DNA of 64,000 bases from Candidatus Wolfebacteria bacterium RIFOXYD12_FULL_48_21 (GCA_001793945.1 MGIW01000006.1:70179-134178); one strand, 5' to 3'; numbered from the stretch's first letter, positions 32,299 through 40,363 are shown. The notes: generated from the sequence alone by a model not told the origin. Made by a program: numbers and translations.

Positions 32299-32302
32299 GG
32301 TT

Positions 32303-32378
32303 GTGTCATTCTGAACTTGTTTCAGAATCCCCCCTATTTGTACATGAGATTCCGAAACAAGTTCGGAATGACAATAAG
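32303..32378. repeat. Palindromic MITE-like element
   Basis: gtcattctgaacttgtttcagaatc ... gattccgaaacaagttcggaatgac. Confidence 0.7.
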
Positions 32379-32390
32379 ATATGTTTATCC

Positions 32391-33605
32391 ATGAAATTCA
32401 AATACCAAGCACGCAATAAGGATGGGGAACTGCAAGTCGGGTTCGTGGAATCATATTCGCAGGCGGGCGCTGCGGATGTTTTGGTTTCCCATAGTCTGTA
32501 TGTCCTTAGTCTTGAAAGTACGGATAAGGAAAATATTTTTGACAAATTTCTTGCCGCGTTCAAGCATATTTCACTAACCGATCTCATGATCTTTACGCGT
32601 CAATTTGCGACGCTCATGGAGGCAAAGGTTTCCCTTGGTGATTCCATGAAGAACCTGCAAAAGCAGACGCGTAGCCCGATGATGAAAGAAGTGATCCATG
32701 AGATCACATCCGACATCGACAGCGGTCTTGCCCTGTCACAGGCGTTTGAACGACAAAAGGATGTATTTTCGGAATTTTATGTCAGCATGATCCGGTCTGC
32801 CGAGATAACGGGGCGTTTGGAAGAAGCCGTTATTTATTTGGCCGCCTATATCGAAAAGCAAAAACTGTGGCGCTCTCGCATCATTAACGCGCTTATTTAT
32901 CCAATCATTTTAGTTGTCATGTTCTTGGGCATCGTGTTGCTTATGGTAACCATGGTCTTGCCGAACATTCGGCCGATCTTGCTTGAATCGGGCACCGCAT
33001 TGCCGTGGTATACGCAGGCTGTTTTGGTTGGGGGCGATTTCATCATCAACTGGTGGTGGGTCGTGATTCTTGCCGTCGTACCTTTGGTCATGTTCATTTT
33101 GGAATATGCCCGCAGTGAAGAGGGTAAGGTGGTTATCGACGAAGTGGTATTGCGCATGCCCGTGTTCGGAAACCTTTTTGCGAAAATGTACATTGCCCGG
33201 TTTGCGGAATCGTTGAGCATCTTGATCCAAGGAGGTATTCCTATCGCGCAAGCATTGGAGATCACTTCTCGATCGATTGGCAGTAATGTGTTCCATGAGA
33301 TATTGCACGAGGTCAGCGATCGGGTTCGCGGAGGCGAGCTGCTTTCCACTGCATTGGAGCAGTACGAATTTTACTTTCCTTCGTTGGTCAGTCAGATGAT
33401 CGCCATCGGCGAAACTACGGGGCGGCTCGATGAACTGCTCGGCCGCGTTGGTATATTCTACACGCGGGAGGTCGACGACATCATGGGTCGGCTTGGCGAG
33501 CTTATCCAGCCGCTCATCATCGCCATTATCGGTGTCTTTGTCGGATTCCTATTTGCATCCATACTCGTTCCGATATATAATTTAGTAAAGTCATTCAGTG
33601 CATAA
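32391..33605 (+). CDS. pilC: Type IV pilus inner-membrane platform protein PilC (GspF family)
   Basis: Two T2SSF repeats and three TM helices. Confidence 0.9.
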   Translation: MKFKYQARNKDGELQVGFVESYSQAGAADVLVSHSLYVLSLESTDKENIFDKFLAAFKHISLTDLMIFTRQFATLMEAKVSLGDSMKNLQKQTRSPMMKEVIHEITSDIDSGLALSQAFERQKDVFSEFYVSMIRSAEITGRLEEAVIYLAAYIEKQKLWRSRIINALIYPIILVVMFLGIVLLMVTMVLPNIRPILLESGTALPWYTQAVLVGGDFIINWWWVVILAVVPLVMFILEYARSEEGKVVIDEVVLRMPVFGNLFAKMYIARFAESLSILIQGGIPIAQALEITSRSIGSNVFHEILHEVSDRVRGGELLSTALEQYEFYFPSLVSQMIAIGETTGRLDELLGRVGIFYTREVDDIMGRLGELIQPLIIAIIGVFVGFLFASILVPIYNLVKSFSA

Positions 33606-33660
33606 TTAACCAACAACTAATAACCTGCGGCCGATAACAAATATCGGAGGATACTATTTT

Positions 33661-34155
33661 ATGAAAATACTACAATACAAAAAAGGCAGCGCCTTGATCC
33701 GTCAGGCGACGGAGAAAGGTTTTACTTTGGTCGAAATGCTTATCGTTATTGCTATCGTTGCCATTCTTGCATCGGTTGCGTTGGTAAGCGTGCGTGGCGT
33801 TCGTGAGGCGGCGGCCGACACCAAGCGCATTTCCGATTTGAGCAAAGTGCAAACATTGCTTGAGATCTATTATAATAAGCAAGGTACATATCCGAATGTA
33901 AGTACTTGGGACGCATTGGAGACCGAGCTGAAAGCAAAGAACATCACTGCTACCGATATTCCGCAGGACCCGCTTGGCGACACCCGCTCCTATGCATATG
34001 GCATTCAGCCCTCCACATTTCAACGCTATATTTTACGGGCTCAATTGTTGGATTCAGACCATAGAAATCTTACCGATGCCAACGAGATTGATACCACTGA
34101 ATACGGCGTTGATTGCAACGATACCAGCGGCTATTACTGTATAAGCTCGTTCTAA
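33661..34155 (+). CDS. Type IV pilin (prepilin)
   Basis: EKG|FTLVEMLIVIAIVAILASVALV. Confidence 0.8.
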   Translation: MKILQYKKGSALIRQATEKGFTLVEMLIVIAIVAILASVALVSVRGVREAAADTKRISDLSKVQTLLEIYYNKQGTYPNVSTWDALETELKAKNITATDIPQDPLGDTRSYAYGIQPSTFQRYILRAQLLDSDHRNLTDANEIDTTEYGVDCNDTSGYYCISSF

Positions 34156-34182
34156 CGGGTTCCCGTATGCCCATGCAAGCGC

Positions 34183-35109
34183 ATGGGCATATTTATATCT
34201 TTTGCCATTATGACATTTTTTTCCTATATACTTTTGGCGACGCTCGGGCTTATTATCGGAAGCTTTCTTAATGTTGCAACGCTGCGCTATGATCCTGATG
34301 GGGGATTTTTGAATATACGTTTATTTGGCGGTCGTTCTCATTGTCCGCGGTGTCGCGCGCAACTGGCGTGGTATGAGCTCATCCCCGTATTGAGTTATTT
34401 GTTTCTTTGGGGGCAATGCCGCCATTGCAAGCAGCACATATCGTTGCAGTATCCTATCGTAGAGCTTCTAACCGCCATTGTATTCGTTGCGATTCCTATG
34501 CGCATTGAATCGATGTCCTATATGCTATTTGCGGGCAGTGTCGGAGCGCTTTCCGTTGCGCATCTTTTGGTATCTGCGCTTTGGGTCGCAGTCTTTGTGT
34601 TGTTCATTGCATTGGCGGTCATAGATCTTCGCCACATGATCATTCCCGATTTTATTGCGATCGCCTTGGGCACTATCGGGGTCGTGCTTGCCGGTGTCAT
34701 GCAATGGTTTGGCGGGTTTTCCCCGTTGCGGGGTTCTTTTATGGGGCACTATGCCATGATTTTTGGGTTTCGCGAAAGCATTTGGGTTAACCATTTTTTT
34801 GCGGCGTTTGTTGGGCTTATATTTTTTGGGCTTATCATCGGCTTGAGTAGGGGGCGTGCGATGGGATGGGGAGACCTAAAGCTTGCGGGTGCATTGGGTC
34901 TTATCTTCGGATGGCCGGATATTGTGCTTGTGCTCATGCTCTCGTTCATTATCGGGTCCGTTGTGTCGGTTGGGCTTATGGTGCGCGGGCGCAAGACCAT
35001 GGGCGATGCGGTTCCATTTGGTCCGTTTTTGGTTATCGGCGCGGCAACCGTGTTCTTTTTCGGTTTCCGAATCATGTCGCTATATTTTGGTTCGTTCGGT
35101 GTTGTGTGA
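34183..35109 (+). CDS. pilD: Prepilin peptidase (A24 family)
   Basis: CPRCRA...CRHC zinc motif plus a multi-TM peptidase domain. Confidence 0.85.
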   Translation: MGIFISFAIMTFFSYILLATLGLIIGSFLNVATLRYDPDGGFLNIRLFGGRSHCPRCRAQLAWYELIPVLSYLFLWGQCRHCKQHISLQYPIVELLTAIVFVAIPMRIESMSYMLFAGSVGALSVAHLLVSALWVAVFVLFIALAVIDLRHMIIPDFIAIALGTIGVVLAGVMQWFGGFSPLRGSFMGHYAMIFGFRESIWVNHFFAAFVGLIFFGLIIGLSRGRAMGWGDLKLAGALGLIFGWPDIVLVLMLSFIIGSVVSVGLMVRGRKTMGDAVPFGPFLVIGAATVFFFGFRIMSLYFGSFGVV

Positions 35110-35120
35110 GTAGGGGGGCG

Positions 35121-35420
35121 CCAAGCAGAATCGCTGCAGGGGAACCCGCTCACGGATTTTGTGGGGCAAAATCCTGCGCTTCCGTTTGGGTTCCCCTGCA
35201 GCGATTTCGCTTGGCTTGAAGGGAGGGGAAGAGAAGGGAAGGGGCAGACAGAATCGCCATGCGGGAACCCGCTCACGTGTTACACACTGCTGTCCGCCGG
35301 CTGGCGGATTTAGGTTCCCATATTGTCATTCCTGTGAAAACAGGAATCTGAATTTCCGTCATCGCAAGGCGGAATGTTTCTCATATAGGCTTGCCATGCC
35401 TGCAGATCGCATATATACTT
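35121..35420. repeat. Cluster of palindromic MITE/REP-like elements, including a 28-bp-arm hairpin at 35121-35218
   Basis: gccaagcagaatcgctgcaggggaaccc ... gggttcccctgcagcgatttcgcttggc, followed by copies with the ccggctggcggat box and a gtcattcctgtgaaaacaggaat hairpin. Confidence 0.75.
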
Positions 35421-35539
35421 GAAATAGAAGGGTAGTATTGGGTTTAGTGTTAGCCACACAGTCGAGGTGGCTTGACAAAAATATTAAACCATGCTATTAA
35501 TTAAATCAGCAACTAACCAACTAATAAAGGAGAAAAACC

Positions 35540-36145
35540 ATGGAAGGATTCAACAGAAAGGCATTCGACGAAATGGTGGGCAAGGCACAAGAAGAGGCAT
35601 TAAAAGACAATGCCAAACTTGATAGCGCAAATGCGCTGATCAAAGAGATCAAGGGAGAAAAGGAAATTGCCGAGTCGAAAGAGCAATTCGAAACTTGGCA
35701 AACAATCGAATCTGGAGGGAAGTCAAAGGACGAGCTCATAAAAGAGCTTGAAGAAAAAGGAAGACTAATTGGCGCCGACGCCAACCATCTTCTTAAAAGT
35801 GAAGATTTCAAGACCTCCGAATCAAGGGAACATATTGATCTCGTAAGGCCGACCGTTAAAGATCTCGGGTTTGATAATGGTGCCACTACTGAAGAAATAT
35901 ACGCAAGAGCCGATGAATTGGGGTTGGATCTCTGTGAAGCTGAAGATGCTCCCAACTTAAGGGTCCAATATGATGGGACAGAAGGCATGGCGATCGCCAT
36001 GAAGCAGATTACCGGCTCTGGTGGCTTCCCGAGTGTGTTCTACCTGAGCAGCGATGACGACGACCTGTGGCTCGGCACGAACGGTGCGCGTCCCGGCATC
36101 AGGTGGAATGCTGACAATCGCTTTGTCTTCCGTCGGCGCAAGTAA
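35540..36145 (+). CDS. DGR target protein with a C-terminal variable region
   Basis: AAAGGAG Shine-Dalgarno. The C-terminal 45 aa is encoded by the VR. The tail reads DDDLWLGTNGARPGIRWNADNRFVFRRRK, which is CLec-fold-like. Confidence 0.8.
   Translation: MEGFNRKAFDEMVGKAQEEALKDNAKLDSANALIKEIKGEKEIAESKEQFETWQTIESGGKSKDELIKELEEKGRLIGADANHLLKSEDFKTSESREHIDLVRPTVKDLGFDNGATTEEIYARADELGLDLCEAEDAPNLRVQYDGTEGMAIAMKQITGSGGFPSVFYLSSDDDDLWLGTNGARPGIRWNADNRFVFRRRK
36008..36142 (+). repeat. DGR variable repeat (VR)
   Basis: 135-bp copy of the TR with 14 substitutions, all at TR adenines. Confidence 0.85.
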
Positions 36146-36208
36146 CTCTTGTGGACTTGTGCGCCTGTTATCTATTTGGGCACTTGGTCCCTTTGTTCCC
36201 TTGCATTT

Positions 36209-36233
36209 AAATCCCGCGCTTTGCGCGGGATTT
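36209..36233 (+). terminator. Perfect 11-bp-stem hairpin downstream of the VR and target stop
   Basis: aaatcccgcgc ttt gcgcgggattt. Confidence 0.45.
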
Positions 36234-36498
36234 GTATTATGGTACGATGATTGCGGTAGTAGGCTAATGATCCAATGCGGGCGATCAAGGTTTCCCGCGG
36301 CCGAATCCGGTATCCATGCGTCGAGAGTGCCTTCGTCCTCCGGCTGGCGGATTGAGACAGGGTGGCGCATGCAGAAACTCCATCAAAAATGAAGATACTT
36401 GGTATAAGATATTGGAGGAGTCTTGCTCCCAAATACTATACAGCCTTGAGTTTGCCAGCAAGCGATCGAGGGGCGGTGGAACGGATGATATCTTATAC

Positions 36499-36633
36499 AT
36501 TACCGACTCTGATGGCAACCCGAATGTGTTCAACCTGAACAGCAATGACGACGACCTGTGGCTCGACACGAACAATGCGCGTCCCGACAACAGGTGGAAT
36601 GCTGACAATCGCTTTGTCTTCCGTCGGCGCAAA
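36499..36633 (+). repeat. DGR template repeat (TR)
   Basis: Adenine-containing master copy, with AAC/AAT codons in the target frame. Embedded in a non-functional-looking ORF, 36316-36834. Confidence 0.85.
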
Positions 36634-36638
36634 CCTCT

Positions 36639-36953
36639 TTATTTCTCCTCCGGACTTGCGCCGGAGGAGTTTTTCTTTTCAATCTGGTGTTGCCACCCGC
36701 CGAGCATCTTGCCGATCTCATCTACGCATTTTGAAAGCGCAATGTATTTCTTACTATCAAGAACATTTATTTCCCACGCAAAGCGGAAAAAAAATTTTAG
36801 TTCGTCTATCTTGGCCCCGGCTTTTTGTAGGTGAGGCAATTTGAGTGCCTCTTTTTTCCAGCTGGCGGTAAACAGAAGTCCTGCCGTTTCGATAATAAGG
36901 CCGTCGATTTTTGTCCCCAATGTATAGCGTGAAGTTTTCGGGAATAGCTTCAC
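36639..36953 (-). CDS. avd: Avd-like accessory variability determinant (four-helix-bundle / 23S IVS protein family)
   Basis: FPKTSRYTLGTKIDGLIIETAGLLFTA and SKKYIALSKCVDEIGKMLGGW match the Avd/IVS pattern FPK.E.Y.L..QI.RAA.SI..NIAEG ... E.GKML. The ORF may extend upstream to about 37010 with a non-ATG start. Confidence 0.7.
   Translation of the reverse strand: MKLFPKTSRYTLGTKIDGLIIETAGLLFTASWKKEALKLPHLQKAGAKIDELKFFFRFAWEINVLDSKKYIALSKCVDEIGKMLGGWQHQIEKKNSSGASPEEK
36645..36679 (+). terminator. Plus-strand intrinsic terminator immediately 3' of the TR
   Basis: ctcctccgg acttgcg ccggaggag tttttctttt. Confidence 0.6.
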
Positions 36954-37013
36954 ATATTCTTGCCAGAGTTTGTACAGTGTGATAGTTTTGCTAATAATTG
37001 TTAAATTATTAGC

Positions 37014-37033
37014 GGGGGGGGGTAATTTTTTTT
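37014..37033. repeat. Homopolymeric G9 tract followed by a T8 tract in the avd-RT intergenic region
   Basis: agcgggggggggtaattttttttg, read directly. Confidence 0.8.
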
Positions 37034-37042
37034 GTTATTATT

Positions 37043-38071
37043 ATGAATGTCAAATTGAGTCATATATTTGAAGAGATAATTTCCGTCGATAATCTTTTGT
37101 TTGCATGGAAGGAATTCGAAAAGGGCAAGAAAAACAAAATCGATGTTTTAAAATTTTCGGAACGACTGATGGATAACATCTTATCATTGCATTACGATTT
37201 GGCAAGCAGAACATATGCGCATGGCGGGTATAAGGCATTTAAAATAAGCGATCCGAAGCCCCGCGATATCCATAAAGCGAGTGTGCTGGACAGATTGCTC
37301 CATCACGCCATATATAGAGTCGCATACCCCTATTTTGACAGGAAGTTCATCTGCGATTCTTATTCCTGCCGGAACGGGAAAGGAACACACAAAGCCATGA
37401 GTCGCTTTAAGCAATATCACAATGAAGTTTCCAAAAATAACACAAGAACCTGCTGGGTATTGAAATGTGACATTAGAAAGTTTTTTGCCAATATCGACCA
37501 TCAAATACTGAGGGATATTTTAGAAAAACATATAGAGGATGAGGATTTGATGTGGCTATTGGGAGAGGTTGTCGGGAGTTTTAATACCGAAGGGAAGACG
37601 GGCAAAGGGCTTCCGCTCGGGAACCTTACATCTCAGCTCTTAGTGAATATATACATGAATGAATTTGATCAGTATATGAAGCATGTATTGAAAGTAAAAT
37701 GGTATATCCGATATGCTGATGATTTTTGCATGCTATCTGGGAATAAAAAAGAATTGGAACAATTGTTGTCCCAAACAGGTGACATTCTGAAAGGAAAGCT
37801 GGAACTGGAGCTCCATCCCGATAAGGTTTCCATAAAAACATTTTCTTCCGGAGTTGATTTTCTTGGGTGGGTGCATTTCCCGGCTTATAGCGTCTTGCGA
37901 ACTTCCACCAAAAGGAGAATGATGGAAAGAATAAGAAAGCGCTTAAATGATGAAACGGTGGGTTCGTATTTGGGAATGCTGAAGCACGGGAACGGGCATT
38001 TAATACGCGAAGAAATAGTATCAATACAAAATGGCGCAAGCGGTTGGATACCCTCTGCCAATAAGGTATAA
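37043..38071 (+). CDS. DGR reverse transcriptase
   Basis: RT motifs present. PLGNLTSQ is the DGR-specific (I/L)GxxxSQ. YADDF active site. Confidence 0.9.
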   Translation: MNVKLSHIFEEIISVDNLLFAWKEFEKGKKNKIDVLKFSERLMDNILSLHYDLASRTYAHGGYKAFKISDPKPRDIHKASVLDRLLHHAIYRVAYPYFDRKFICDSYSCRNGKGTHKAMSRFKQYHNEVSKNNTRTCWVLKCDIRKFFANIDHQILRDILEKHIEDEDLMWLLGEVVGSFNTEGKTGKGLPLGNLTSQLLVNIYMNEFDQYMKHVLKVKWYIRYADDFCMLSGNKKELEQLLSQTGDILKGKLELELHPDKVSIKTFSSGVDFLGWVHFPAYSVLRTSTKRRMMERIRKRLNDETVGSYLGMLKHGNGHLIREEIVSIQNGASGWIPSANKV

Positions 38072-38078
38072 TGGTCAT

Positions 38079-38657
38079 ATGATGAACGGGAAACGCGTCG
38101 AAAAGCATGCGGCTATGAGAGGATTTACCTTGATCGAAACACTCGTTGTTATGAGCCTTGTTTTGATTTTGATCTCGATTGCGGCCATGTATAACAGAAA
38201 TGCCGGACGGCAGGTTTTGGTGGCTCGCGAACATGCAAAGGTGCTGACGACATTCGTGCGTGCGCGTTCTGCCGGACTTACCATTCCAAAGACCGACCCA
38301 AGTGTGGAACGCATTTGTGCCTATGGCGTGCATGTCGATTCTGCTGCGCGTACCATTATACTATTCAAGGATCTGGGCGAGCCGCTTCCCGGCTCCTGTG
38401 TTTCGGCGAATCATATATATGATGGCGACAGTGAGGCGCTTGAGCGAAGCGTGCTTGATGCCACGGTTAATATGGCCGCTACGAACATACAAGATGTCGT
38501 ATTCATTCCGCCTTCCGGTGAAGTGATTATTACCAACGAAGGGGGAACAGTCGTGCAATCGGCGACCGTAACGGTTGCCGGTGTTGAATCGGGGCTTTCC
38601 CGCGGCGTAAAAATAAATACATTCGGACAAATAACCGAGTTTGAGCCAATCCCATGA
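38079..38657 (+). CDS. Minor pilin / pseudopilin
   Basis: AAMRG|FTLIETLVVMSLVLILI prepilin motif. Confidence 0.7.
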   Translation: MMNGKRVEKHAAMRGFTLIETLVVMSLVLILISIAAMYNRNAGRQVLVAREHAKVLTTFVRARSAGLTIPKTDPSVERICAYGVHVDSAARTIILFKDLGEPLPGSCVSANHIYDGDSEALERSVLDATVNMAATNIQDVVFIPPSGEVIITNEGGTVVQSATVTVAGVESGLSRGVKINTFGQITEFEPIP

Positions 38658-39172
38658 AACAGCGCATATCCATACAATCGGGAGGATTTCTTCTTGTCGA
38701 AGCCATGGTATCTATGAGCGTATTGATGGTCGGCGTGCTTGGTATATTTGCGCTCATGTCCCAGTCGATCAAACTTACTCGAGTGATCAACGATCAATAT
38801 GTTTCCACCTATCTTGCGGCAGAGGGAATCGAAGTGGTAAAGAACATACTTGATTCAAATGCGCTTACCGATCCCGGCGCATGGAATGCCGGAGGGTTTG
38901 ATGCGGCTGCGTGCTACGAACTTGACTATACAACCGATGATATTGGCTCCGCGCTGTCGGCGTCGTGTTCGGGAAGCGGTGCTACGCCCTTGCTGTTCGA
39001 TGGCTCTGTTTATAGTTATGCGGGCGGAACGGCGAGCGGTTATTCGCGAACGGTGCAGATCGCTCCGATCATGGATGGCGCGCAGATCGGTGTGCGCGTG
39101 CGTTCCATTGTGCGTTGGGCCGGCGGAGAACAATCGTTTGCACTGGAGGACACATTTTATGCGTGGCATTGA
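38654..39172 (+). CDS. Minor pilin / pseudopilin
   Basis: QSGG|FLLVEAMVSMSVLMV. Confidence 0.7.
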   Translation: MKQRISIQSGGFLLVEAMVSMSVLMVGVLGIFALMSQSIKLTRVINDQYVSTYLAAEGIEVVKNILDSNALTDPGAWNAGGFDAAACYELDYTTDDIGSALSASCSGSGATPLLFDGSVYSYAGGTASGYSRTVQIAPIMDGAQIGVRVRSIVRWAGGEQSFALEDTFYAWH

Positions 39173-39183
39173 TCATGACTATG

Positions 39184-39846
39184 GCATGTAAACAAAAACA
39201 AAAAATGCAAAGAGGATTCACCTTGATCGAACTGATCGTCGCATTCGGTATTTTTGCCATTCTGATCACTATTGCCTCCGGGAGTTTTGTGCGTTCGTTG
39301 CGCATTCAGCGGGTTTCGTTGCAGCTCATGGCGGTCAACGACAATATGGCAATAACTCTGGAACAGATGATGCGCGAGATGCGGACCGGGTATAACTTTT
39401 GCACCAACACGGAAAATCTTTCTGCTGCCGATCCTTCCGTGCAGGCGCAATGCGCCGCACTGGACAACGGAGAGATTCAATTCGTGACCGCCGGCAATGT
39501 TTTGGTGCGGTATCGCTTGAAAAACGAGGCCATTCAAAAGGGTGTTGGCGTTGCCGCATGGGATCCGGCAAATCCGCCTGAAACGGCTTGCGACGAGGGT
39601 GAGTTTGATGCGACCAGCGGTGTTTGTTATCGCACTATGACCGCGGATACGATCAAGGTCTCTGATGCCAATTTTCGTGCGTTGCACAACGATGTGGAAG
39701 TTTCTCCGTTGTATCCACCGCGCATCGTGCTGAGTTTTGCTGTTACCAGCAGCGATCCTTTGGTCGAGGCGTTTGCGAGTCCCATTACCATTCAAACGAC
39801 AGTGAGTGCGCGGTGTGGGGTTAGCTCGTGCCCCTCCGACTCGTAA
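39184..39846 (+). CDS. Minor pilin (PilW/GspJ-like)
   Basis: MQRG|FTLIELIVAFGIFAILI. Start ambiguous between 39184 and 39208. Confidence 0.65.
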   Translation, partial: ACKQKQKMQRGFTLIELIVAFGIFAILITIASGSFVRSLRIQRVSLQLMAVNDNMAITLEQMMREMRTGYNFCTNTENLSAADPSVQAQCAALDNGEIQFVTAGNVLVRYRLKNEAIQKGVGVAAWDPANPPETACDEGEFDATSGVCYRTMTADTIKVSDANFRALHNDVEVSPLYPPRIVLSFAVTSSDPLVEAFASPITIQTTVSARCGVSSCPSDS

Positions 39847-39961
39847 TAGGATGGTTCACGGTTGACGGCTCATAGTTTACGGGCGGAAGCAGTTGGTGCA
39901 TTTAGTCGACTGTGAACCGTAAACTGTTAATGGTTATCGAAGAATAAACAGTCTAAATACA

Positions 39962-40363
39962 ATGCAATCGTTTATGAAGCGACCTAACATAAAAAAATAT
40001 ACCCAACGGGGGCAGGCTATGATCCTGACGGTGCTCGTGTTGTCGAGCATCGTGCTTTCGTTGTCATCCATCGGCGGGTATTTGATGCTGGTCCGCTTGC
40101 GCATCAGTTCCGATATCGGCAATACCATGCGCGCCATTTACATTGCCGATGCGGGGCTTGAGTGTGAAGCATATAACCATTTCAAAAATAGCGATGCGGC
40201 GGGATTTTGTGCTGATGCCGCCCGAAATGCTTTTCTGTCCGGTGAAGTTGATGATACGGCGCGTTTTTATTATGAAACGGTCTATGTATCTGCTGCACCT
40301 TCGTATATTCGTTCCATTGGAACTGCTCGGAATGTAAACCGGTCGTTCCGGCTTGATTTCTGA
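39962..40363 (+). CDS. PilX-like pilus-associated protein
   Basis: N-terminal hydrophobic helix. Last gene of the minor-pilin cluster. Confidence 0.4.
   Translation: MQSFMKRPNIKKYTQRGQAMILTVLVLSSIVLSLSSIGGYLMLVRLRISSDIGNTMRAIYIADAGLECEAYNHFKNSDAAGFCADAARNAFLSGEVDDTARFYYETVYVSAAPSYIRSIGTARNVNRSFRLDF

What the first reader, a model, noticed from the sequence alone, without database searches (positions are those of the whole stretch)
37011..37033. G9/T8 homopolymer tract in the avd-RT divergent intergenic region
The sequence agcGGGGGGGGGtaaTTTTTTTTg lies about 20 nt upstream of the RT start codon and just upstream of the Avd ORF on the other strand. Homopolymeric G tracts of 9 or more are classic slipped-strand mispairing sites. 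Length changes here would alter promoter or 5'-UTR spacing for the RT, or the avd reading frame if avd extends upstream. A second gggggggtaatt motif occurs at 2884-2895, upstream of the first island gene.
Basis: seen in the sequence. Interest (0 to 1): 0.5.

Follow-up and report, generated by a model that had tools for sequence, protein, structure and literature searches.

The report
Slippery G-tract gating a DGR
The run of nine G's lies inside the start of the accessory gene (avd) of a diversity-generating retroelement; the same mutable repeat is kept at this spot in dozens of related groundwater bacteria, where its length decides whether avd is in frame, so it probably acts as a stochastic on/off switch for targeted hypermutation.

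Summary
G9 (37014-37022) and T8 (37026-37033) exist, and G9 is the longest homopolymer in the 64 kb window. It is not a chance run. In 51 distinct related Patescibacteria DGR loci, a G6-G12 tract (47 loci) or a (GA)n repeat (4 loci) sits at the same place between divergent avd and RT, at a near-constant distance from the Avd N-terminus.

On the avd strand the tract reads CCC codons (PPP), and the avd frame is always open through it. Every locus has an ATG 3-41 nt upstream whose frame runs into the tract. In the window this ATG is 37063-37061, the antisense of RT His7. With C9 it is out of frame (a 20-aa peptide); C10 would give full-length Avd.

A second haplotype of the same cassette carries G8. 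It differs otherwise by one SNP in 1.85 kb and has a differently A-mutagenised VR. Three other near-identical pairs differ only in tract length.

Best reading: a contingency-type repeat in the 5' coding end of avd, possibly also in the RT promoter spacer, that gates DGR activity. T8 is lineage-specific. The G7TAATT at 2884 is probably chance. I found nothing on this in the literature I could search.

The parts
37014..37022 (-). G9 on the + strand, C9 on the avd strand. This is the mutable homopolymer. It reads as CCC codons inside the 5' end of the avd reading frame.
   Evidence: Positional homologues occur in 51 distinct loci. Length variants G8/G9 occur in the same cassette.
37026..37033 (-). 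T8 (A8 on the avd strand). It encodes KK(N) in the avd leader frame. It is a lineage-specific expansion and is not conserved in relatives.
   Evidence: Sister lineages L105 and L106 have AGCAGAATC / AGCAAAATT here, 3 nt shorter.
37061..37063 (-). Conserved ATG on the avd strand, the reverse complement of RT codon His7 (CAT). Inferred true start codon of avd.
   Evidence: M[ST]Q[LF]N[FS]H...PPP-Avd proteins, and tract-less in-frame fusions. (51/51 loci have an ATG open into the tract, 21.6 expected). (CAT 33: CAC 1, against 63% CAT elsewhere).
37001..37063 (-). The reading frame from that ATG as it stands with C9: MTQFDIHNNNKKNYPPPLII*. It is out of frame with the avd body. C10 or C7 would join it to Avd.
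37051..37053 (-). TTG that comes into frame with avd when the tract is C8. This was called as a 137-aa Avd (P0122) in haplotype B. It is not conserved in sister lineages.
36639..37013 (-). avd body (bAvd four-helix-bundle protein), with the stop codon at 36639-36641. Public annotation starts it at GTG 36951-36953 (104 aa), which removes part of helix 1.
   Evidence: PF22296 bAvd, E = 5.5e-14, profile positions 5-106 matching from 8 codons after the tract. Also.
36990..37013 (.). Perfect palindrome GCTAATAA-TTGTTAAA-TTATTAGC abutting the tract. It encodes ANNLTIIS of Avd. It is identical in sister lineages L105 and L106 although nearby codons differ.
   Evidence: Function not tested.
37023..37028 (+). 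TAATTT, a -10-like hexamer directly 3' of the tract. It is a candidate RT promoter element whose spacer would contain the G tract.
   Evidence: TAnnnT directly follows the tract in 20/51 loci (background 1.7% per position). In 11 of these the RT ATG lies exactly 13 nt after the tract. In the window the ATG is 20 nt after the tract.
37043..38071 (+). DGR reverse transcriptase (342 aa).
   Evidence: RVT_1, E = 1.2e-22.
36499..36632 (+). Template region (TR).
   Evidence: 134-nt repeat of the VR with 13 mismatches, all at TR adenines.
36008..36141 (+). Variable region (VR) at the 3' end of the target gene 35540-36145.
   Evidence: VR differs between haplotypes A and B at 18 positions, 17 of them TR adenines.
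36645..36679 (+). Terminator-like hairpin plus T run just after the TR. It overlaps the 3' end of avd on the other strand.
37025..37053 (-). Promoter-like site on the avd strand: TTGACA, 17 nt, AAAAAT. Its start site would fall inside the C tract. It is a consensus match only.
   Evidence: Unexplained; see evidence against.

Best explanation
The G9 tract is a selected, hypermutable simple-sequence repeat (a contingency locus) inside the 5' coding end of avd, the accessory gene of a diversity-generating retroelement in a Candidatus Wolfebacteria genome.

avd and RT are divergent, and their 5' ends overlap. avd translation starts at the ATG at 37063-37061, which is antisense to RT codon 7. It then runs through a short leader and the C tract (Pro codons) and continues into the Avd four-helix bundle. 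Slipped-strand mispairing changes the tract length, and RNA polymerase slippage on the same run may add to this. A length change moves the avd body in or out of frame with its start.
- C9, as in this window: OFF. The product is a 20-aa peptide.
- C10: ON from the ATG.
- C8: ON from a TTG.

Avd is required for DGR cDNA synthesis in the Bordetella phage model (established knowledge). The tract would therefore gate mutagenic retrohoming stochastically and reversibly. Lineages could diversify the pilus-locus target protein and then lock in a variant.

The same tract lies directly upstream of a -10-like box of RT, so its length may also tune RT transcription.

Shown here: conservation, position, frames, nucleotide-level selection, and length polymorphism.
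Inferred: the start codon, the on/off consequence, the switching rate, and the effect on DGR activity.
For: 1. Conserved position. 51 distinct related loci (RT 56-66% identical) carry G6-G12 (47 loci) or (GA)n (4 loci) between divergent avd and RT. The tract lies 68-76 nt (a few 80-90) from the Avd FPK-motif codon, while its distance to the RT body varies from 22 to 76 nt.
2. Tract-less relatives. L042-L044 (about 48% RT identity) and L087 (58%) put the avd ATG exactly where the tract sits. In L042-L044 the avd and RT start codons are 0-11 nt apart or overlap as CATG; in L087 they are separated.
3. The avd frame is open through the tract in all loci. In the window there is no canonical start between the tract and helix 1.
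4. 51/51 loci have an ATG within 60 nt upstream whose frame is open into the tract, against 21.6 expected from shuffles.
5. 46 of 120 Avd cluster representatives are called with M...PPP or SLSL leaders. Tract-less in-frame fusions such as MTQLNFHTNLSVLQKL also exist.
6. The RT His codon opposite that ATG is CAT in 33 of 34 loci, against 63% CAT elsewhere in the same RT genes.
7. Selection acts on the nucleotides, not the peptide. The tracts are pure C runs although CCC is only 20% of Pro codons in these genes, and a dinucleotide repeat substitutes in four loci.
8. Specificity. Only 5 other G/C runs of 7 or more occur in 272 kb of the same loci.
9. Length polymorphism with identical flanks:
   - In this cassette, G9 (11 assemblies) against G8 (L111, L114). 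The only other difference in 36142-37987 is one SNP.
   - L076 G11 (avd in frame) against L077 G9 (out of frame).
   - L083 G11 (avd and RT both in frame) against L081 G10 (both out).
   - L021 G7 against L049 G8.
   - Sister lineages L105 C9 and L106 C11 straddle the in-frame length C10.
10. The DGR is or was recently active. All 13 VR/TR mismatches are at TR adenines, and the VRs of the two haplotypes differ at 17 TR-adenine positions.
Against: 1. With the nearest upstream ATG as start, only 17 of 51 loci are in frame. 11 need +1 nt and 23 need -1 nt, which is indistinguishable from random (p = 0.12). None of the four lineages closest to the window is in frame with the conserved ATG, yet the VRs are diversified. 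Either OFF is the usual resting state, or Avd is made by RNA-level slippage, or the ATG is not the only start.
2. About 30 of 51 loci have a TTG or GTG at or near the first Avd residues downstream of the tract that could serve as a start. The window itself does not.
3. A sigma-70-like match on the avd strand (TTGACA-17-AAAAAT) would begin transcription inside the tract and so exclude the ATG.
4. All data are consensus assemblies. G8 and G9 are fixed differences between two haplotypes, and no within-clone switching was seen. The strain's 11 assemblies all show G9. Homopolymer length errors in short-read assemblies cannot be excluded for single contigs.
5. No transcript, protein or reporter data exist.
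Confidence: 0.6

Rival explanations
1. Programmed recoding rather than a heritable switch. The long C run makes RNA polymerase add or drop a base, and/or makes ribosomes carrying tRNA-Pro shift frame. A fixed small fraction of transcripts then yields full-length Avd whatever the DNA length. The tract would set a low Avd dose and not an on/off state.
For: Two thirds of loci, and all four lineages nearest the window, are out of frame at the DNA level. Even so, the avd bodies look intact and the VRs are diversified at TR adenines. Runs of 9-12 identical bases are long enough for transcriptional slippage, and CCC-C is a known +1 shift-prone site (established knowledge, not tested here). There is a slight excess of loci needing -1 nt, which is equivalent to a +1 ribosomal shift: 23 of 51.
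Against: The required shift differs in direction between close relatives. The window and L105 need +1 nt; L106 needs -1 nt. A single programmed frameshift direction therefore cannot be conserved. One third of loci are simply in frame. DNA-level length differences between near-identical cassettes are observed. There is no conserved stimulatory structure at a canonical distance; the palindrome in this lineage abuts the run with zero spacing.
Confidence: 0.2
2. The tract is mainly a promoter element for RT and has no coding role. It would act as spacer DNA between the -35 and -10 boxes, as in Neisseria porA/opc or Bordetella fim, or as part of the RT 5' UTR. Its length would set RT transcription.
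For: TAnnnT directly follows the tract in 20 of 51 loci, against 1.7% background. In 11 of these the RT ATG lies exactly 13 nt after the tract, which is the geometry of a leaderless mRNA promoter. -35-like hexamers (TGGTAA, TGGCAA, TTGCGA) lie 5-11 nt upstream of several tracts; this comes from reading the sequences.
Against: The tract is anchored to avd, not to RT. Its distance to the RT body varies from 22 to 76 nt. In 16 of 51 loci there is no RT start after the tract at all. The implied spacers range from 14 to 21 nt. In the window the ATG is 20 nt away and the promoter scan did not call a + strand promoter using this -10. This model does not explain the conserved ATG open into the tract or the CAT bias. 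It could still be a second function of the same tract.
Confidence: 0.12
3. The tract is kept for a property that does not involve slippage. One possibility is an N-terminal polyproline segment needed by Avd. Another is a homopurine/homopyrimidine tract forming non-B DNA that insulates the two back-to-back promoters.
For: Both G(n) and (GA)n are homopurine tracts. The avd frame reads PPP in most loci.
Against: Pro codons in the tract are exclusively CCC, against 20% CCC elsewhere in these genes. The (GA)n loci encode SLSL instead of PPP. Tract-less Avd relatives lack any Pro run. Two thirds of the loci would not translate the tract in the Avd frame from a canonical start. Length varies from 6 to 12 nt even between near-identical loci.
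Confidence: 0.05
4. Chance homopolymer or sequencing/assembly artefact.
For: Poly-G artefacts occur on two-colour Illumina instruments. Homopolymer lengths can be mis-assembled.
Against: The tract is identical in 11 assemblies made with three assemblers and is flanked by unique sequence. It is positionally conserved in 51 distinct loci from many projects.
Confidence: 0.01

Closest known systems
Intragenic homopolymer contingency loci (translational phase variation): poly-G/C tracts in Campylobacter jejuni, Neisseria (e.g. lgtA, pgtA), Helicobacter pylori and Haemophilus influenzae
   Same: A G/C run of about 7-13 nt lies near the 5' end of an ORF. Length differences between close relatives move the ORF in and out of frame. 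The nucleotide repeat is conserved, not the peptide. Many genome copies look 'frameshifted'.
   Different: The controlled gene is not a surface or restriction-modification gene. It is the accessory factor of a targeted hypermutation machine. The hosts are uncultured Patescibacteria. The tract lies in a region where two divergent genes overlap at their 5' ends, so in some loci one repeat sits in both reading frames. Switching has not been measured.
Promoter-spacer repeat switches: N. meningitidis porA/opc, Bordetella fim genes, and the H. influenzae hifA/hifB divergent promoter (TA)n
   Same: The repeat lies between divergent genes and immediately upstream of a -10-like box. The hif case also controls two divergent genes with one repeat.
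   Different: Here the repeat is anchored to, and translated with, one gene (avd). The -35/-10 spacing is not conserved: implied spacers are 14-21 nt. The promoter role is only suggested.
Diversity-generating retroelements of the 'B3' architecture typical of candidate phyla radiation bacteria (Wu et al. 2018, PMC5758913); prototype Bordetella phage BPP-1 avd-TR-brt
   Same: The locus has an RVT_1 reverse transcriptase, a bAvd protein, a TR/VR pair whose mismatches are all at TR adenines, and the target upstream. [quoted passage not shown]
   Different: That survey contains no occurrence of 'homopolymer' or 'start codon'. The BPP-1 cassette has co-directional avd-TR-brt and no such tract, as far as I know.
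Programmed transcriptional slippage sites (Thermus thermophilus dnaX A9, Shigella mxiE/spa13, IS element transposases)
   Same: A long homopolymer lies inside an ORF where out-of-frame DNA still yields functional protein.
   Different: Those sites keep a fixed out-of-frame arrangement and mostly use A/T runs. Here the frame relation varies between relatives and one third are in frame.

Membership tests
Diversity-generating retroelement (DGR) | Reverse transcriptase of the DGR type next to the repeat pair | tested here: met
   RVT_1, E = 1.2e-22. 48 + 50 related RT loci, nearly all with an adjacent bAvd.
Diversity-generating retroelement (DGR) | TR/VR repeat whose differences fall at template adenines | tested here: met
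   134-nt repeat with 13/13 mismatches at TR adenines. Between haplotypes, 17 of 18 VR differences are at TR adenines.
Diversity-generating retroelement (DGR) | Accessory variability determinant (Avd) | tested here: met
   PF22296 bAvd, E = 5.5e-14.
SSR contingency locus (translational phase variation) | Simple-sequence repeat of mutable length (homopolymer of about 7 or more) inside the ORF, downstream of the start codon | tested here: inconclusive
   The repeat and the open frame are shown. That the upstream ATG is the start is inferred from conservation, protein calls and the CAT bias, not demonstrated.
SSR contingency locus (translational phase variation) | Repeat-length polymorphism between otherwise near-identical sequences | tested here: met
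   G8 against G9 in this cassette, with 1 SNP in 1.85 kb. L076/L077, L081/L083 and L021/L049. L105 C9 and L106 C11.
SSR contingency locus (translational phase variation) | Length change toggles the reading frame between full-length and truncated product | tested here: met
   By translation: C9 gives a 20-aa peptide, C10 a 141-aa Avd, and C8 a 137-aa Avd from TTG.
SSR contingency locus (translational phase variation) | The repeat is conserved at the nucleotide level, not as a peptide | tested here: met
   Pure C runs against 20% CCC usage elsewhere in these genes. (TC)n substitutes in 4 loci.
SSR contingency locus (translational phase variation) | High-frequency, reversible switching within a clonal population | not testable with these tools
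   No reads or cultures are available. 11 consensus assemblies of haplotype A all show G9.
Promoter-spacer repeat switch | Repeat located between recognisable -35 and -10 elements so that its length sets the spacing | tested here: inconclusive
   A -10-like TAnnnT abuts the tract in 20/51 loci. No conserved -35 was found, and implied spacers are 14-21 nt. The promoter scan of the window did not call it.
Programmed transcriptional slippage / ribosomal frameshift site | Conserved out-of-frame arrangement that needs one particular shift | tested here: not met
   Frames are 17 in frame, 11 needing +1 and 23 needing -1. Close relatives need opposite shifts.

The most novel reading that the evidence does not exclude
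Across Patescibacteria, DGRs of the inverted-avd architecture carry a built-in contingency repeat shared by the overlapping 5' ends of avd and RT. Targeted hypermutation is therefore itself switched on and off stochastically. A lineage diversifies its pilus-associated target protein while the repeat is in phase, then 'locks' a useful variant when the repeat slips out of phase. That would be a mutable switch controlling a mutator, and in some loci one repeat would set the frames of two divergent genes at once.
Probability: 0.4. Interest if true: 0.8.

Novelty: new variant of a known kind. Interest (0 to 1): 0.66.

Why it matters
How cells control a DGR is largely unknown. It is unclear how they avoid endless mutagenesis of a protein that already works, and why many DGRs look inactive in metagenomes.

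A conserved slippery repeat in the start of avd gives a concrete, testable regulator. Tract length should predict whether a population's VR is diversifying.

The finding also bears on annotation. Gene callers truncate or miss avd in roughly two thirds of these cassettes; the window's avd is annotated as 104 aa from an internal GTG. Surveys that require an intact Avd, or that score DGRs as 'complete', will misjudge them.

It would also be one of the first contingency loci described in candidate phyla radiation bacteria. Here the DGR sits inside a type IV pilus gene cluster that is likely to be important for episymbiotic attachment.

Tried and rejected
- Shine-Dalgarno role of the G run for RT. 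Rejected: the distance to the RT ATG is 20 nt here and 4-65 nt in relatives.
- avd starting at a canonical codon just after the tract. In the window the first one is GTG 36953, which deletes 13 positions of the bAvd profile.
- Fixed-direction ribosomal frameshift. Rejected because close relatives need opposite shifts.
- Known RNA family. Rfam at E <= 1 over 35000-38500 gave only noise.
- T8 as a conserved partner of G9. It is not present in relatives.
- The 2884 G7TAATT motif as a related element. It shows marginal enrichment, is invariant in 4 assemblies, has no special fold (z = 0.13) and lies in a different context.
- Scans of genome contigs and metagenome contigs with the RT. They found no near-identical strain. 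The G8 allele was found instead through the Avd protein cluster.
- Literature searches on DGR with homopolymer, phase variation, slipped-strand, frameshift and phase-variable found nothing relevant. Paul et al. 2017 (Nature Microbiology) is not in the library, so prior mention there cannot be excluded.

Full report
**1. The observation**

The sequence agcGGGGGGGGGtaaTTTTTTTTg is at 37011-37034. G9 is 37014-37022 and T8 is 37026-37033. G9 ends 20 nt before the RT start codon at 37043. It is the longest homopolymer in the 64 kb window. The only other G run of 7 or more is G7 at 2884, and C runs never exceed 7. Eleven assemblies of the same strain, made with three different assemblers, all read G9/T8. 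The tract is therefore real and is not an assembly accident.

**2. Context**

The tract lies in a diversity-generating retroelement (DGR). Its parts are:
- the target gene, 35540-36145, carrying the VR at 36008-36141;
- the TR, 36499-36632, followed by a terminator-like hairpin;
- avd on the minus strand (bAvd, E = 5.5e-14);
- the RT on the plus strand, 37043-38071 (RVT_1).

All 13 VR/TR mismatches are at TR adenines. The organism is a Candidatus Wolfebacteria from the Rifle aquifer. The cassette sits inside a cluster of prepilin peptidase and pilin-like genes. Wu et al. [quoted passage not shown]

**3. The tract is a conserved feature of this DGR family**

I collected RT relatives from species-representative genomes and from metagenomes. 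I anchored each locus on a conserved Avd codon (the P of the FPK motif) and a conserved RT codon (I12).
- All 51 distinct loci with RT identity of about 56-66% and both anchors present, apart from L087, have a repeat between the anchors. The counts are G6 ×1, G7 ×3, G8 ×2, G9 ×13, G10 ×19, G11 ×5 and G12 ×4, plus four loci with (GA)6-10.
- The repeat lies 68-76 nt (a few 80-90) from the Avd anchor. Its distance to the RT anchor ranges from 22 to 76 nt. It therefore belongs to avd.
- Elsewhere in 272 kb of the same loci there are only five G/C runs of 7 or more.
- The more distant relatives L042-L044 (about 48% RT identity) and L087 have no repeat. In L042-L044 the avd and RT start codons stand back to back, 0-11 nt apart or as an overlapping CATG; in L087 they are separated. 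In all four the Avd Met sits where the repeat is in the other loci.

**4. The tract is inside the avd reading frame**

On the minus strand of the window the avd frame reads ***QKKLPPPANNLTIISKTITLYKLW.... It is open through C9, but it has no ATG, GTG or TTG until GTG 36953. That GTG is the annotated start. It removes 13 positions of the bAvd profile.

The same holds generally. The avd frame is open through the repeat in every locus, reading PPP, or SLSL in the (TC)n loci. Many loci have no canonical start after the repeat.

Several lines of evidence point to an upstream ATG as the start:
- Every one of the 51 loci has an ATG within 60 nt upstream whose frame runs uninterrupted into the repeat. 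Shuffles predict 21.6.
- In the window this ATG is 37063-37061, the reverse complement of RT codon His7.
- Of 120 Avd cluster representatives from the protein database, 46 are called with such leaders, for example MSQLNFHNNNYSYNNPPPTGALSVIQKL and MTQFDSHNKNSGQLTPPP.
- Some tract-less relatives are direct in-frame fusions (MTQLNFHTNLSVLQKL). This shows that the ATG is used as the avd start in the family.
- The RT His codon opposite it is CAT in 33 of 34 loci, although CAT is only 63% of His codons elsewhere in the same RT genes. That is the pattern expected if the antisense ATG is under selection.
- The repeat is kept as nucleotides, not as a peptide. The runs are pure C although CCC is only 20% of Pro codons in these genes, and a dinucleotide repeat replaces the homopolymer in four loci.

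**5. Frame state**

With C9 the window's ATG frame gives MTQFDIHNNNKKNYPPPLII* and stops (37063-37001). C10 or C7 would join it to the full Avd.

Over the 51 loci, taking the nearest upstream ATG as the start:
- 17 are in frame;
- 11 need +1 nt;
- 23 need -1 nt.

This does not differ from a uniform distribution (p = 0.12). The avd bodies nevertheless appear intact.

**6. Length polymorphism**

It is not.
- A second haplotype of this same cassette carries G8. It is seen in L111 (JGI 3300009285) and in L114 (ENA ERZ909573, run SRR2177362).
- Between 36142 and 37987 the two haplotypes differ only by this 1-nt indel and one SNP, 37405 C>T.
- Their VRs differ at 18 positions, 17 of them TR adenines. 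The DGR has therefore been active since the haplotypes split.
- At C8 a TTG at 37053 comes into frame, and the gene was called as a 137-aa Avd, P0122.
- The two nearest sister lineages have identical flanks around the tract, with C9 (L105) and C11 (L106). The conserved ATG would be in frame at C10 in all of them.

Other near-identical pairs:
- L076 (G11, avd in frame) against L077 (G9, out of frame).
- L083 (G11, both avd and RT in frame with their starts) against L081 (G10, both out).
- L021 (G7) against L049 (G8).

**7. The RT side**

In 35 of 51 loci the RT has a canonical start after the repeat. In 20 loci the repeat is followed directly by TAnnnT (background 1.7% per position). In 11 of these the RT ATG lies exactly 13 nt after the repeat, which is the geometry of a -10 box serving a leaderless mRNA. 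The repeat may therefore also lie in the RT promoter spacer.

In 16 of 51 loci no RT start follows the repeat, and the RT frame is open through it. There, one repeat appears to sit in both divergent reading frames. In the window the RT ATG is 20 nt away and TAATTT follows G9. The promoter scan did not call this as a promoter.

**8. Interpretation**

The best-supported reading is a contingency-type simple-sequence repeat in the 5' coding end of avd. Its length decides whether Avd can be made from its conserved start codon. The window's allele (G9) is in the OFF phase.

Avd is needed for DGR cDNA synthesis in the Bordetella phage system (established knowledge). The repeat would therefore gate mutagenic retrohoming.

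The near-random frame distribution fits a switch that drifts between phases when there is no selection to keep the DGR on. It fits equally well a system in which RNA polymerase slippage on the 9-12-nt run supplies some in-frame mRNA from any allele. I cannot separate DNA-level from RNA-level slippage with these data. A fixed-direction ribosomal frameshift is unlikely, because close relatives need opposite shifts.

One observation does not fit. A consensus-like promoter on the avd strand (TTGACA-17-AAAAAT, 37053-37025) would start transcription inside the tract. It is only a pattern match.

**9. The rest of the finding**

T8 is not conserved. Sister lineages have a sequence 3 nt shorter there, and more distant relatives have unrelated sequence. 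It encodes Lys codons of the avd leader and is probably incidental.

The GGGGGGGTAATT at 2884 lies between a GIY-YIG gene and an unrelated ORF. It shows only marginal enrichment: 2 matches against 0.23 expected, with 3 of 100 shuffles doing as well. It has no unusual fold and is invariant in four assemblies. I treat it as chance.

**10. Novelty**

Intragenic poly-G/C switches are classic in Campylobacter, Neisseria, Helicobacter and Haemophilus. A family-wide repeat controlling a DGR accessory gene, placed in the overlap of two divergent genes, is a new variant. Seven full-text searches and a reading of the main DGR survey found no mention of it. Paul et al. 2017 is not in the library, so prior mention there cannot be excluded.

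Noticed in passing
window 36990-37013: A perfect 8-bp-arm palindrome, GCTAATAA-TTGTTAAA-TTATTAGC, directly abuts the G tract. It encodes ANNLTIIS of Avd. It is identical in sister lineages L105 and L106 although nearby codons differ. It could be an operator or an RNA hairpin.
   Followed up: partly
L111 (JGI Ga0103680_10015084) against window 37988 onward: The near-identical DGR cassette of haplotype B diverges from the window after RT codon ~315. It is followed by glycosyltransferase and UDP-glucose dehydrogenase genes instead of the pilin-like genes. The cassette therefore sits in a different context, through recombination or mobility.
   Followed up: partly
window 32301-35109 and 38031-40363: The DGR is embedded in a type IV pilus-like cluster: a pilin with an N_methyl motif, an A24 prepilin peptidase, and several N_methyl pseudopilin-like ORFs. 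The 201-aa target protein has no Pfam match. It may be a pilus-associated adhesin.
   Followed up: no
L002 and L004, at window 36017-36160: Two of the first six assemblies examined have scaffold gaps (runs of N) exactly at the VR. This is consistent with VR heterogeneity in those samples, or with VR/TR repeat confusion during assembly.
   Followed up: partly
related loci L008, L010, L012, L013, L017, L021, L023, L024, L029, L033, L059, L062, L064, L081, L083, L104: In 16 of 51 loci the RT has no canonical start codon after the repeat, and its frame is open through the repeat. Examples are L012 (GTG 4 nt upstream), L021 (ATG 10 nt upstream) and L083 (ATG 25 nt upstream). One repeat then lies in both divergent ORFs. 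In L021/L049 the two genes would be in frame at different lengths.
   Followed up: partly
window 36645-36679 and 36639-36641: A strong terminator-like hairpin (9 bp, 7 GC) plus a T run follows the TR on the + strand. It overlaps the last codons of avd on the - strand, so the TR RNA and the avd mRNA converge and overlap at their 3' ends.
   Followed up: no
window 36316-36834 (+): A 172-aa ORF runs across the TR and ends with the same ...NADNRFVFRRRK motif as the target protein. The TR therefore looks like the tail of a decayed or duplicated copy of the target gene.
   Followed up: no
window 39042-39143: A cluster of 13 substitutions between otherwise identical assemblies (L003 and L006 against the window). 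It lies at the junction of two pilin-like ORFs and is a strain-level hotspot unrelated to the DGR repeats.
   Followed up: no
window 37025-37053 (- strand): A consensus-like promoter, TTGACA-17 nt-AAAAAT, whose predicted start site falls inside the C tract. If real, avd transcripts would begin in the homopolymer (reiterative transcription?) and would lack the conserved ATG.
   Followed up: no
It lies in an intergenic region downstream of a GIY-YIG gene, is invariant in 4 assemblies, and shows no evidence of function.
   Followed up: yes
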